DNA from: Octopus vulgaris
Lineage: Eukaryota
Assembly (NCBI GenBank): GCA_951406725.2
Contig: OX597833.1
Location: 4,030,001-4,094,000, forward strand
Length of the DNA: 64,000 nucleotides
Direction: 5' to 3'
Positions 49,740 through 62,998 of this stretch are shown piece by piece. The notes below the pieces were generated by a model. It was not told where the DNA came from. It searched no databases and saw only the letters and a list, made by a program, of their open reading frames with translations. Position 1 is the first letter of the stretch; each line of letters begins with the position of its first letter. The translations under genes were made by a program, and so were the position numbers.

Positions 49740-49928
49740 CTGATCGATGGCACTTTTGTCCATGCCACCCTGGTTCACAACCTCTTCTACAATCACCAGT
49801 CTGTTTGTCACATGGTTGTCCGTTTTCACATCGACCGCACTTTTTAATTCCCTTCCGGAAGATATAATAGCCATCTGGACATGTCGTTACACGATAACGA
49901 GGCTCAGGTTTTACCACAACATTAGTTA
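49740..49928 (-). CDS. Modular gene exon 10: basic 7-Cys EGF-like module
   Basis: 189 nt, tttacag/GTGAGT. (V)TNVVVKPEPRYRVTTCPDGYYIFRKGIKKCGRCENGQPCDKQTGDCRRGCEPGWHGQKCHRS. Confidence 0.9.
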
Positions 49929-49980
49929 CTGTAAATAATGATTAATTATATTTGTGTCAGGAAAGAAATTTTAAAAGTAA

Positions 49981-50371
49981 TTAGCAGTATCGCCCGGCGT
50001 TGCTCGGGTTTGTAAGGGAAATAACTATATAAGCATTTTTAGAGATGTAAAGTATAATAGCCATCTCAATATGGTTAACCACAAATGGGGGGGTTACTGT
50101 AGCTTTTTACGTTCTGAGATTTAATAATAAAGTTTTAGAGAGTTACTTCCCTTATATATGCCAAAAATACATTAAAAATGGGAAAAATTGATGGTAAATT
50201 TTTTTAAAATCGTAGACTCATCGTAGACGCGCGCTAATACCCAGAAGGGCTCGATATGAATCACGACTATAAGATACCCGGTTTTGGTTAAACTGCACCG
50301 CAAAATGTGGGAGTAGTTAGGAATTTAAATCGTAGGAGACAGACACACAACCTCACTTTTATATATAAAGA
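49981..50371 (-). mobile_element. Non-autonomous Helitron
   Basis: Homologous to 31113-31508 and 40151-40547, with hairpin CCCGGCGTTGCTCGGG. Confidence 0.8.
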
Positions 50372-51042
50372 TATATCAAAAATTATTCTCCTTAATTTTT
50401 CACGTCTGTTTTGTTGGGTTTTTTTGTTTGTTTTTCATGTTTTTCCCTTTTCTCGTGGGTTAGATGAATATATTATTAAGGCCTTGTTTTACAGCCAGAT
50501 GCCTTTCCTGTAGCTAACCCTTACAGATCGAAAGCTGCTACGCATTTTGTATGAGGCATTAATGATTCTATCAGCTCACTACCTCGATCAAGGGTACAAT
50601 GCCCTAACAGCTAGGTTTCATGGCCTAGTGGGTAGGGTGTTGCACCTATGATCATAAGACCATGGTTTCAAATCCCAGACTGGCTATGTGAAAAACACTT
50701 TTCCCATTACTCGAGTCCACGGATCTGTAAAGTGTAACCTTGTGAGATCAGCTTACAAGGGTGAGACACTGACTCAGGTAAAACACTTGAACGGAGGTCA
50801 CGTGGGCCACATTTTGTATTCAGAAATCAGTAACTTGAATAGTACAACTCATACAGTGACCCGTGACTTGTTGTGATTGGTTGTCCAACCACTTCAAAGG
50901 ATCGTCATCATATTCTATTGATCCAAATGGCTGAAAGACAAATTTCACCTCAGCAGTATTTGAACCCAGAACATGATGAGTGAGAAGATATATTGCAAAG
51001 CATTTTGTTCAAAGTACAAGAATTAAAGAATTCGGCACTCAC

Positions 51043-51228
51043 CTCTTTGCTCACATCTTTGTCCATACCATCCTGTTATACAACCTCTTATACAATAACC
51101 AGTCTGTTTGTTACATGGTTCTCTGTTTATACATTGACCACACTTTTTTATTCCGTTGCCGATGATATAATAGCCATCTGGACATGTTGGTACACGATAA
51201 CGAGGCTCAGGTTTTACCACTTTAGTTA
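51043..51228 (-). CDS. Modular gene exon 9: basic 7-Cys EGF-like module
   Basis: 186 nt. (V)TKVVKPEPRYRVPTCPDGYYIIGNGIKKCGQCINREPCNKQTGYCIRGCITGWYGQRCEQR. Confidence 0.9.
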
Positions 51229-51278
51229 CTGTAAATAATAATTAATTATATTTGTGTCAGAAAAGAAATTTTAGAAGA

Positions 51279-51331
<53 letters not shown>

Positions 51332-60759: not shown

Positions 60760-60945
60760 CTCTTTGGTGGCATTTCCGTCCATACCATCCTGTTGTACAA
60801 CCTCTTATACAATAACCAGTCCGTTTGTTACATGGTTCTCTGTTTATACATTGACCACACCTTTTAATTCCTTTGCGAAATATATAATAGCCATCTGGAC
60901 ATGTCGTTACACTATAACGACGCTCAGGTTTTACAACTTTAGTGA
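60760..60945 (-). CDS. Modular gene exon 3: basic 7-Cys EGF-like module
   Basis: 186 nt, tttacag/GTAAGT. (V)TKVVKPERRYSVTTCPDGYYIFRKGIKRCGQCINREPCNKRTGYCIRGCTTGWYGRKCHQR. Confidence 0.9.
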
Positions 60946-60988
60946 CTGTAAATAACAATTAATTATAGTTGTGTCAAAAAAGAAATTT

Positions 60989-61041
<53 letters not shown>

Positions 61042-62130
61042 TAATAATGCAATACCAGGCAGTGGCTCTCATGGCTTCTCATCTTAACTGATTGGGAGTG
61101 TTATCATTTACATTGTTTTGTCTTGGTATAAAAGATGGGTTACAGCAAATATTCTACTCAATACCACAGAGTTGCTTGTCAGTTGTTTGACCTTAACCAG
61201 TTGAGCATGTCCCTTAGTGGCAGACGATATGTGCATCTCTGATCATGAGCAGAAGTAGTTGGGGAGCATCATAGCCGTGTGTTGAAAGGGAATCTTTGGG
61301 GTTTGGATAATTCACCTTTGGAAATATAGGTGTTTCATTCAATACCTTTAAACAACCCTTATTCAGAGACCTTTTGAGCACGATGGGCTACCCGATCTGG
61401 AGAAAACTCTGACTAGGCCCCACCTGCAATATCACAAACTGTTTATCTAGATACAAGATCACCATGTTGCATACATATGGTTGTGATGCATGTGCCTGGT
61501 GTACCCTTATCAGAAAAGTAGTTATGATAGGCATATTGGGCTCCCTACATTTGAGCACCAGGGTCACTTTGATGGCATGTACTGCTCACTCACTCAGTAA
61601 TAATAATAATAACAAGCTTTCCTAATGTAGGCATAAGGCCAGAAATTTTAAGGGGAATTTTGAACTCAGAATGTAGAGGGTCAGAAGAAATGCTCCTAAA
61701 CATTTTGTGTTGCATGCTAACGATTCTGCCAGCTCACGGCCACTTGGTTGATATTTTTATCTGATCAATCTAAAAGGACGAAAGATAAAATTGAACCTTG
61801 AAGGTATTTAAATTTAGGAAGGTGGTGAGCTGGCAGAAACGTTAGCACGCCGGGTGAAATGCTTGGCGGTATTTCGTCTGCCGTTACGTTCTGAGTTCAA
61901 ATTCCGCCGAGGTCAACTTTGCCTTTCATCCTTTCAGAGTCGATTAAATAAGTACCAGTTACACACTGGGGTCGATATAATCGACTTAATCCATCTGTCT
62001 GTCCTCTCTGTGTTTAGCACCTTGTGGGTAGTTAAAGAAATAGGCATTTAAATTTAGGATGTAAAGAGCAAGAAAAAATGCCACTAAGCATTTTGTCCAC
62101 TGTATTAGAGCGAAAGATTTCAGCACTTAC

Positions 62131-62316
62131 CTCTTTGGTGGCATTTCCGTCCATACCATCCTGTTGTACAACCTCTTATACAATAACCAGTCCGTTTGTT
62201 ACATGGTTCTCTGTTTATACATCGACCACACTTTTTAATTCCTTTGCGGAAGATATAATAGCCATCTGGACATGTCGTTACACGATAACGAGGCTCAGGT
62301 TTTACCACTTTATTTA
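62131..62316 (-). CDS. Modular gene exon 2: basic 7-Cys EGF-like module
   Basis: 186 nt. (V)NKVVKPEPRYRVTTCPDGYYIFRKGIKKCGRCINREPCNKRTGYCIRGCTTGWYGRKCHQR. Confidence 0.9.
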
Positions 62317-62833
62317 CTGTAAATAACAATTAATTATATTTGTGTCAGTAATGAAAATCTAGAAATTAAATATCAAAACAATCTTTATTATCAAATATTG
62401 CTGAAAATCCAAGACTTTGGACTTTGACACAGGATTTCTAACGGTTTGAAAGATGGGAGTATAATATAGGATGTCCTGCCTAGAAATTGAAACCTTGACT
62501 CTCACCCCATTGGTCAACGGAAAGTAGAAAGCAAGGACTTTAGCTTTTGACATTCTTTTGATCTTTTTCATTTATTTGTTTCAGCTGTGGCCATGCTGGG
62601 GACACTGTGGCCATGCTGGGGACATTGTATTGATTATCTCCAGAATATAACTGGTATGTAATTTGTTGAACCTCGGCTGCTCAATACAATGTCAACATTG
62701 TTGCGACTATCTCAGAGCATCAGGAAATATCTATTTAAAGAATTCAAGGCTTTCATTCAGGGCCTCTGCCCTGATGCCTCCTCTCACTGCTTCAACCAAC
62801 AACAATAACAAAACCAGAGATCTGTCTACTCAC

Positions 62834-62998
62834 CTCTTCTTTGGTCACATCTTTGTCCATACCATCCTGTTGTACAACCTCTTATACAATAACCAGTCTG
62901 TTTGTTACATGATTCTCTGTTTATACATCGACCACACCTTTTAATTCCTTTGCCGATGATATAATAGCCATCTGGACATGTCGTTACAACTTTAGTTA
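62834..62998 (-). CDS. Modular gene exon 1 (first within this window): basic 7-Cys EGF-like module
   Basis: 165 nt with an in-frame 24-nt deletion relative to siblings. TKVVTTCPDGYYIIGKGIKRCGRCINRESCNKQTGYCIRGCTTGWYGQRCDQRR. Confidence 0.88.

What the first reader, a model, noticed from the sequence alone, without database searches (positions are those of the whole stretch)
49740..62998. Array of ten interchangeable phase-1 exons under recent tandem duplication and shuffling
Seen: eight type-A and two type-B exons share the acceptor context (tt)tacag|T. Introns are duplicated with them: 53905-54411 matches 62317-62833, ~59575-60960 matches ~60965-62330, and the flanks of exons 5 and 6 match. 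Variants are mosaic: IIGNG/IFRKG, VPT/VTT, YRV/YSV and QRCE/RKCH recombine across copies. All length differences are multiples of 3 (165-192 nt). Inference: unequal crossover or gene conversion with selection for frame; any subset could be spliced in frame, allowing isoform or copy-number diversity.
Basis: partly seen in the sequence, partly recalled or inferred. Interest (0 to 1): 0.7.

Follow-up and report, generated by a model that had tools for sequence, protein, structure and literature searches.

The report
Octopus EGF-repeat exon array, histidine-rich tail
Ten near-identical exons in an octopus gene each encode one small cysteine-rich EGF-type module and were multiplied by recent unequal crossing-over; eight have lost one partner cysteine and the gene appears to run on into histidine/glycine-rich blocks, which suggests a secreted, cross-linking structural protein rather than a splice-diversity device.

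Summary
The ten minus-strand exons are real (165-192 nt, all 3n, phase 1-1, AG/GT). Two introns were duplicated with them and differ by about 5%; swapped flanks and shared patches show unequal crossover and conversion. Symmetric phase is ordinary for EGF modules and says nothing about skipping; splicing and copy number stay untested. The finding omits what is encoded. Each exon is a molluscan MEGF10/SCARF-type EGF repeat; the only close relative is an Octopus bimaculoides fragment. The eight type-A modules carry Ile in place of a cysteine kept in 173 of 174 database repeats; the one exception is the O. bimaculoides copy. Seven more in-phase exons follow (47676-32122), two with long Gly/His/Tyr/Arg blocks. 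Together they give 1,240 open codons, pI 9.5, with no membrane segment. Best reading (0.5): a secreted, cationic, beads-on-a-string structural or coating protein whose spare thiols and His blocks cross-link it, working like octovafibrin, mfp-2/mfp-4 or squid beak proteins without belonging to those families. The array mechanism is textbook; the architecture was not found described.

The parts
62834..62998 (-). E1, type A EGF-module exon, 165 nt, 7 Cys; 24-nt loss relative to E7 between two TGTAA words
62317..62833 (-). intron E1-E2, paralogue of intron E7-E8 (26 of 505 sites differ)
62131..62316 (-). E2, type A, 186 nt, 7 Cys
60946..62130 (-). intron E2-E3, paralogue of intron E3-E4 (57 of 1183 sites differ)
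60760..60945 (-). E3, type A, 186 nt; E4-like 5' flank and E2-like 3' flank (crossover product)
59558..60759 (-). intron E3-E4, paralogue of intron E2-E3
59366..59557 (-). E4, type A, 192 nt, 7 Cys
57982..58158 (-). E5, type B, 177 nt, 8 Cys
55462..55629 (-). E6, type B, 168 nt, 8 Cys
54412..54600 (-). E7, type A, 189 nt; sister of E1 by flanks, differs from it by a patch shared with E2/E3/E8
53905..54411 (-). intron E7-E8, paralogue of intron E1-E2
53719..53904 (-). E8, type A, 186 nt; its donor read-through (GECTVL*) equals the C-terminus of the O. bimaculoides model P0001
51043..51228 (-). E9, type A, 186 nt
49740..49928 (-). E10, 189 nt, 7 Cys; first 18 core residues identical to E2, last 26 closer to an O. 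bimaculoides 8-Cys module (19 of 26) than to other A copies (15-17)
47629..47676 (-). s11, candidate 48-nt phase 1-1 spacer exon (predicted from splice signals only)
43590..44243 (-). H12, 654-nt phase 1-1 exon: 172-aa Gly/His/Arg/Tyr block (G30 H26 R16 Y11 %) then an 8-Cys module
41490..41648 (-). C13, Tyr-rich 8-Cys module exon, 159 nt
38137..38694 (-). H14, 558-nt phase 1-1 exon: 139-aa Gly/His/Tyr/Arg block (G36 H23 Y15 R12 %) then an 8-Cys module
37058..37216 (-). C15, Tyr-rich 8-Cys module exon, 159 nt
34851..35009 (-). C16, Tyr-rich 8-Cys module exon, 159 nt
32122..32283 (-). C17, module exon with 9 Cys; possibly the last coding exon (read-through GNV then stop, AATAAA at 32066), or spliced to a short last exon such as 26971

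Best explanation
The ten exons are the repeat array of one large octopus gene whose 5' end lies beyond the window. SHOWN from sequence: each exon is one MEGF10/SCARF/receptor-PTP-type EGF repeat between phase-1 introns. The array grew by unequal crossing-over with breakpoints in or next to the homologous exons, copying whole introns, and is being patched by gene conversion. Eight modules lack one otherwise invariant cysteine, all ten carry net positive charge, and they are joined by 12-19-residue linkers instead of the usual 3. INFERRED: these exons are spliced mostly constitutively onto seven further in-phase exons with two Gly/His/Tyr/Arg blocks (about 0.8), giving a protein of at least 1,240 residues without a membrane anchor, hence secreted (about 0.7). 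It acts as a structural, coating or cement protein (about 0.55). The disulfide-stapled beads give extensibility, the His/Gly/Tyr blocks give pH- or metal-triggered condensation, and the spare thiol of each A module joins modules or chains (inter-chain about 0.35). Repeat number then sets chain length and cross-link valency.
For: Exon anatomy. Duplication and conversion. Module family: the profile search returns 1401 proteins at E<=0.001; named relatives are molluscan MEGF10/11, draper-like and PTP proteins; Pfam EGF_laminin matches the six A/B exons scanned but only below cut-off, E 0.019-0.25. Lost Cys: 173 of 174 full repeats in 77 of 158 fetched proteins keep it, the exception being the O. 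bimaculoides A module; with a looser pattern 231 of 231 keep it. All eight A exons have an Ile codon there, while the remaining 7 Cys and 7 Gly never change and 20 of 34 other codons do. Charge: A cores +3 to +9 against -1.3+/-2.5 in 171 database repeats. Linkers are 3 aa in 293 of 305 database junctions. The 17 exons give 1,240 codons with no stop, pI 9.5 and a maximum 19-residue hydropathy of 0.43. None of 74 candidate phase-1 acceptors downstream opens a convincing membrane helix. H14 repeats differ mostly at third codon positions, 21-23 of 35-39 at long lags. Tandem EGF repeats and His-rich blocks recur in marine holdfast proteins (PMC12817120 passages; PMC10336842).
Against: There is no transcript, tissue or proteomic evidence; the link from E10 to s11 and H12 rests on strand, phase and module homology alone. 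No signal peptide is visible because the 5' end is outside the window. The last exon is not established; hydrophobic candidates at 22322 (1.91) and 21263 (1.85) were judged poor but not excluded, and only directly joined phase-1 exons were tested. No longer relative bearing the His block was found, and the O. bimaculoides model stops at the A module, so the architecture rests on one genome. H12 shows no third-position bias. Which cysteine is left free rests on the laminin-EGF pairing rule (recalled); the model gave no disulfide assignment and no fold match at E<=0.001. A modules come in two runs of four, so spare thiols could pair within one chain. The His blocks lack the GHG[PVL][YH] motif of squid beak proteins (0 found). 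Cationic EGF repeats also fit ligand capture, as in SCARF1.
Confidence: 0.5

Rival explanations
1. A cationic recognition or host-defence protein, soluble or membrane-bound like MEGF10/draper/SCARF1. The Arg/Lys-rich repeats bind polyanions such as microbial surfaces or modified lipoproteins, the His/Gly/Arg blocks are antimicrobial or metal-sequestering, and repeat shuffling varies avidity or specificity.
For: The module's relatives are MEGF10/11, draper-like and PTP receptors. SCARF1 binds ligands through arginines on its EGF-like domains (PMC11563577 passages). Cuttlefish SepECPs are cationic, Cys-rich and bacteriostatic (PMC4500399 passages). The variable sites often change charge (G/R, N/K, Q/R, E/H).
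Against: No membrane segment or F5/8 or PTP domain appears in 17 exons. Long linkers break the compact repeat spacing of the receptors. pN/pS 0.63-0.66 shows no diversifying selection. This role is not exclusive of a structural one.
Confidence: 0.22
2. One reading: a cassette of interchangeable exons that makes many isoforms by skipping or mutually exclusive choice (Dscam-like).
For: All ten exons are 3n, phase 1-1 and 58-96% identical in DNA, so skipping would keep the frame.
Against: Symmetry is the norm for such modules (PMC3927616) and also holds for the seven dissimilar downstream exons. No 12-nt complementary site covers more than 2 flanks. One AT-rich 10-nt word near 46380 matches 7 upstream flanks, but these flanks are copies of each other and no shuffled control was run. 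The O. bimaculoides model joins three modules in series, though it is a prediction. Not tested on RNA.
Confidence: 0.12
3. Two separate genes (array and His-rich part), or an array in which some recent copies are unspliced passengers drifting neutrally.
For: The A/B and C/H modules form two clades with full support (100/99). pN among seven A copies (0.061) is close to the intron paralogue divergence (0.05).
Against: No gene end or start was recognised between E10 and H12 (read by eye). All ten copies keep an open frame, AG/GT and every remaining Cys and Gly while 20 of 34 other codons vary.
Confidence: 0.12
4. The duplicated units are assembly artefacts (haplotypes placed in tandem).
For: Repeat-rich region; no independent reads were examined.
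Against: The paired introns differ by about 5% plus six indels. One pair lies 8.4 kb apart with B exons between. The copies have chimeric flanks. The window has no N.
Confidence: 0.04

Closest known systems
O. bimaculoides XP_014771587.1 (P0001, automatic name 'SCARF1-like')
   Same: Three modules of the same 44-residue core; its A module is 81-82% identical to E8/E4, lacks the same Cys and ends in E8's donor read-through.
   Different: A 227-aa partial model with two B-like and one A module and no His block; its B-like modules are only 67-70% identical to E5/E6.
Molluscan MEGF10/11, draper-like, SCARF-type and receptor-PTP EGF arrays
   Same: Same Cys/Gly pattern and tandem arrangement, best identities about 43-54%.
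   Different: Those keep 8 Cys, 3-residue linkers and near-neutral charge, and those scanned often carry F5/8 or PTP domains. Here there are 7 Cys in eight modules, 10-19-residue linkers, strong positive charge, His/Gly blocks and no membrane segment found.
Octovafibrin (O. bimaculoides egg tether; PMC10336842)
   Same: Octopus protein of similar size built from tandem disulfide-stapled EGF-like repeats; model for how such beads bear load.
   Different: 29 repeats of 6 Cys at positions 5, 10, 16, 25, 27, 36, between C-type lectin domains. Here the spacing differs, modules have 7-9 Cys, no lectin was seen and His/Gly blocks are present.
Squid histidine-rich beak proteins (HBP-1 to -3)
   Same: Gly/His-rich disordered blocks with Tyr and GHG triplets (7 and 16).
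   Different: HBPs are 15-18 kDa, Ala-rich, pI about 6, with GHGXY pentapeptides (PMC11931252). Here Ala is 0%, Arg 12-16%, pI about 10, no GHG[PVL][YH], and the blocks are fused to EGF modules. HBPs were not identified in O. bimaculoides (PMC9068888).
Mussel mfp-2 / mfp-4, scallop Sbp9, cuttlefish SepECPs
   Same: Tandem EGF-like cohesive proteins, a His-rich linker protein, and cationic Cys-rich egg-case proteins.
   Different: No sequence comparison was made. These traits sit in separate proteins there, whereas here they appear in one chain. The SepECP motif CX2GX2CCXGCCX8-9C is not the pattern seen here (by eye).
Class 1-1 module duplication by intronic recombination and unequal crossover
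   Same: The same mechanism: phase-1-flanked EGF-type modules prone to tandem duplication (PMC3927616).
   Different: No difference in kind; this case is recent enough to read the breakpoints.

Membership tests
MEGF10/SCARF-type receptors | tandem laminin-type EGF repeats with the family Cys/Gly pattern | tested here: met
   Pfam EGF_laminin only below cut-off
MEGF10/SCARF-type receptors | eight Cys per repeat with 3-residue linkers | tested here: not met
   7 Cys in eight modules; linkers 10-19 aa
MEGF10/SCARF-type receptors | type I transmembrane helix and cytoplasmic tail | tested here: inconclusive
   none in 17 exons; no convincing candidate among 74 acceptors, but last exon not established
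MEGF10/SCARF-type receptors | signal peptide and N-terminal domain | not testable with these tools
   5' end lies beyond the window; no whole genome held
Octovafibrin | 36-aa six-Cys EGF spacing (5, 10, 16, 25, 27, 36) | tested here: not met
Octovafibrin | terminal C-type lectin domains | tested here: inconclusive
   no lectin hit in the exons scanned; gene ends not established
Squid histidine-rich beak proteins | GHG[PVL][YH] pentapeptides, Ala-rich, pI about 6, small | tested here: not met
   0 pentapeptides, Ala 0%, pI 9.8-10.3 against PMC11931252
Squid histidine-rich beak proteins | buccal-mass expression and pH-triggered coacervation | not testable with these tools
   needs expression data and bench work
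Dscam-like alternatively spliced exon clusters | cluster of duplicated, frame-compatible exons | tested here: met
Dscam-like alternatively spliced exon clusters | docking/selector pairing or steric exclusion | tested here: not met
   (simple exact-match test, no control); introns 507-2490 nt
Dscam-like alternatively spliced exon clusters | mutually exclusive or skipped exons in mRNA | not tested
   no read-level RNA data were obtained
Class 1-1 tandemly duplicated modules | one domain per exon, phase 1 at both ends, duplicated with intron sequence | tested here: met

The most novel reading that the evidence does not exclude
An octopus-specific load-bearing or adhesive protein built by recruiting a molluscan receptor EGF repeat, turning it into a cationic free-thiol cross-linking unit by loss of one cysteine (shared with O. 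bimaculoides), multiplying that unit by continuing exon-level crossover, and fusing it to independently evolved His/Gly/Tyr condensation blocks. It would be the octopus counterpart of squid His-rich beak proteins, which were not found in octopus, with material stiffness tuned by exon copy number.
Probability: 0.2. Interest if true: 0.72.

Novelty: new variant of a known kind. Interest (0 to 1): 0.43.

Why it matters
The duplication mechanism is textbook, though this array is young enough to show breakpoints and conversion patches. The product is the point of interest. Histidine-rich beak proteins were reported in squids but not in O. bimaculoides (PMC9068888), and the characterised octopus EGF structural protein, octovafibrin, has only paired cysteines per repeat. 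A chain that combines EGF beads with spare thiols and His/Gly blocks would be a candidate octopus cuticle, beak, cement or coating protein and a natural test of how cross-link number affects a biomaterial. It also shows that the automatic 'SCARF1-like' name on the O. bimaculoides fragment is unreliable.

Tried and rejected
Sequencing-run search with exon H12: no RNA holder listed on record (7 of 24 listed rows hold part of it, three of them only guessed to be RNA); not used as evidence. No reads were laid, so splicing, skipping and copy number remain open. Two-copy complex prediction of module E4: no verdict (0.00, 0.00). Structure of P0001 without alignment: mean pLDDT 48.6, unusable. Structure of E4 with alignment A1: pLDDT 76.7, one hairpin at 20-29; Foldseek gave no match at E<=0.001, its top three rows being laminin-EGF-containing netrin and laminin chains at E 0.21-0.26. 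PDB sequence search: Tie2 and SCARF1 only at E 0.03-0.13. ESM Atlas: no usable hit for H14; for E8 unnamed clusters at 0.88-0.90 and EGF_laminin clusters at 0.87 or lower. Longer relatives of H12: 0 of 699 candidates. Positive selection: not seen. Four-gamete counts as proof of recombination: not decisive alone; E2/E8 sharing, 3 of 4 differences, is not significant (p 0.04-0.11). The module tree resolves only A/B against C/H. Pfam hits to SET_assoc, Furin-like_2 and TrAA12 were below cut-off and rejected. Earlier scan notes: nothing by place, sequence or words. Papers: searches listed no description of this gene; the library lacks most subscription papers. No supplements were read, and supplementary gene tables (for example PMC9068888 Table S4, PMC8976471) could list it. 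PMC8976471 and PMC10138644 (passages) gave nothing specific.
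Full report
Observation. The finding is accurate. A minus-strand scan for TACAG|T acceptors followed by an open, Cys-rich, 3n exon gave ten loci between 62998 and 49740: E1 62998-62834, E2 62316-62131, E3 60945-60760, E4 59557-59366, E5 58158-57982, E6 55629-55462, E7 54600-54412, E8 53904-53719, E9 51228-51043 and E10 49928-49740. Two shorter donors inside E4 and E9 were also printed; I set them aside because they cut off the last cysteine. All ten are phase 1-1, end at GTGAG or GTAAG, and are open in one frame only. 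E5 and E6 are type B. The window has no N and no whole genome is held. The organism is an octopus: the only close relative of the module is from O. bimaculoides, and the neighbouring YIPF5 protein clusters with O. bimaculoides, O. vulgaris and Argonauta sequences.

How the array arose. Self-BLAST shows E1-intron-E2 copied as E7-intron-E8 (91.1% over 1035 columns) and E2-intron-E3 copied as E3-intron-E4 (92.8% over 1645). The introns differ at 26 of 505 and 57 of 1183 sites and by six indels of 2, 12, 10, 9, 1 and 1 nt. I judge this too much for an assembly error or a misplaced haplotype, but no reads were examined. Flanks are exchanged across exons. E2 and E8 are 100% alike upstream and 39% downstream. 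E3 is 90% like E4 upstream and 95% like E2 downstream, as expected if an unequal crossover fell in the exon. E1 and E7 are sisters by both flanks (88%, 98%) yet differ at 10 of 144 core sites, and at 8 of these both states also occur in other copies, four of them clustered in codons 45-48; a generous binomial bound gives p 2e-4 to 3e-3. E10 equals E2 over the first 18 core residues but its last 26 are closer to an O. bimaculoides 8-Cys module (19) than to other A copies (15-17). Against over-reading: 50 of 91 informative pairs are four-gamete incompatible, but the neighbour test is p 0.006-0.045 raw and 0.11-0.18 after collapsing linked changes. Tree simulations without recombination reach the observed fraction with P 0.07-0.35 for eight copies and 0.03-0.21 for seven; by count, P is 0.025-0.034. 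The E2/E8 comparison is not significant.

Selection. Over a 48-codon core, pN/pS is 0.63 for eight A copies and 0.66 without E10. The 7 Cys and 7 Gly codons never change residue; 20 of the other 34 do. The fold is protected, the surface drifts, and nothing points to diversifying selection. All exon length changes are 3n against 2 of 6 intron indels, which any coding exon would show. Phase 1-1 symmetry and tandem duplication by unequal crossover are standard for such modules (PMC3927616, passages). A simple search for a docking site found no 12-nt complement covering more than two flanks; one AT-rich 10-mer near 46380 matched seven upstream flanks that are copies of one another, and no control was run. 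Splicing and copy number were not tested on reads.

What the exons encode. Each is one repeat of the EGF type found in molluscan MEGF10/11, draper-like and receptor-PTP proteins. A profile of the ten exons plus C13 finds 1401 proteins at E<=0.001. Named relatives are of those kinds, at about 43-54% identity. Pfam EGF_laminin matches the six A/B exons scanned, all below cut-off. The close relative P0001 (XP_014771587.1, 227 aa, automatically named SCARF1-like) has two B-like modules and one A module 81-82% identical to E8/E4, and ends in the same donor read-through as E8, so it looks like a truncated model. The predicted structure of E4 has moderate confidence (pLDDT 76.7), and its best fold matches are weak laminin-EGF chains, none at E<=0.001.

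Three departures from the family. First, type A has seven cysteines: the Cys in the B-type GCRSC motif is Ile in all eight copies. Among 174 full repeats in 77 of 158 fetched proteins, 173 keep it and the exception is P0001's A module; with a looser pattern 231 of 231 keep it. By the laminin-EGF pairing rule (1-3, 2-4, 5-6, 7-8; recalled, not from a call) the Cys of CPDG is left without its partner. Second, A cores carry net charge +3 to +9 against -1.3+/-2.5 in 171 database repeats, of which 4 reach +4. Third, linkers are 10-19 residues against 3 in 293 of 305 database junctions.

The gene goes on. Seven more phase 1-1 exons lie downstream on the same strand: a candidate 48-nt spacer; H12 (44243-43590) and H14 (38694-38137), each a long Gly/His/Tyr/Arg block ending in an 8-Cys module; and four Tyr-rich modules, C13, C15, C16 and C17, the last with nine Cys. 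All 17 exons in order give 1,240 codons without a stop, pI 9.5, net charge +147 and maximum hydropathy 0.43. H14 repeats vary mainly at third positions; H12 repeats do not. C17 may end the frame (stop after three more codons, AATAAA at 32066), or a short exon such as 26971 may. Of 74 candidate acceptors further down, the most hydrophobic open frames were a (TA)n artefact (2.48), 22322 (1.91) and 21263 (1.85); none is convincing. No longer relative with the His block was found (0 of 699 candidates). That these exons share a transcript with the array is inference.

Most likely function. I infer a secreted beads-on-a-string protein: disulfide-stapled modules, spare thiols for links between modules or chains, and His/Gly/Tyr blocks for pH- or metal-driven condensation (0.5 overall). 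Tandem EGF-like repeats mark several marine holdfast proteins, and His-rich mfp-4 joins plaque to thread (PMC12817120, passages). Rivals are a cationic recognition or defence protein (0.22; SCARF1 binds through arginines, PMC11563577 passages; SepECPs are cationic, Cys-rich and bacteriostatic, PMC4500399 passages), a splice-diversity cassette (0.12), two genes or passenger copies (0.12) and an artefact (0.04).

Comparison and membership. It works like octovafibrin but is not a member: that protein has 29 six-Cys repeats of different spacing between C-type lectins (PMC10336842; abstract, passages and part 1 of 2 of the Discussion). Its His blocks resemble squid HBPs in composition but lack GHG[PVL][YH] and Ala and are basic (PMC11931252, passages); HBPs were not identified in O. 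bimaculoides (PMC9068888, passages). It shares the module with MEGF/SCARF receptors but fails the eight-Cys and linker features, and the membrane anchor is inconclusive. Five literature searches (listings only) showed no description of this gene; no supplements were read.

Verdict. The mechanism is known; the protein is a new variant of a known kind, tandem-EGF secreted proteins. Interest 0.43. The boldest open reading is an independently evolved octopus counterpart of His-rich structural proteins with exon-tuned cross-link number (probability 0.2, interest 0.72).

Noticed in passing
window 11123-11872 (-): YIPF5 with its whole 249-aa coding region in one exon (Pfam Yip1 E 1.9e-10; clusters with octopus and argonaut YIPF5); a possible 5' UTR exon near 14690-14650 (by eye).
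   Followed up: partly
window 58392-59206: 815-bp imperfect GGT/GGTTTT array (periods 9 and 36) filling most of intron E4-E5, with strong strand skew.
   Followed up: no
window 36411-36962 and 52145-52486: Head-to-tail trimer and near-dimer of a 184-bp interspersed repeat; several other repeat families recur throughout the window.
   Followed up: no
window 62834-62998 (-): E1's 24-nt loss relative to E7 lies between two TGTAA words, suggesting microhomology-mediated deletion.
   Followed up: partly
window 32122-32283 (-): C17 has a ninth Cys next to the last one, a further candidate for a chain-linking thiol.
   Followed up: partly
window about 63200-63460, 42750-43130, 41820-42000, 33200-33640 (-): Broken reading frames that resemble LINE reverse-transcriptase tails (resemblance recalled, not tested; two copies share the IEIEKMWHLKA tag).
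   Followed up: no
database accessions: O. bimaculoides YIPF5 (XP_014771925) and octovafibrin (XP_014771937) have accession numbers 12 apart; whether octovafibrin lies near this locus was not tested and may be chance.
   Followed up: no
window about 21290-21890: Irregular tandem repeat of a short unit (self-match 21287-21769 to 21360-21877, 87%) between the EGF gene and YIPF5.
   Followed up: no
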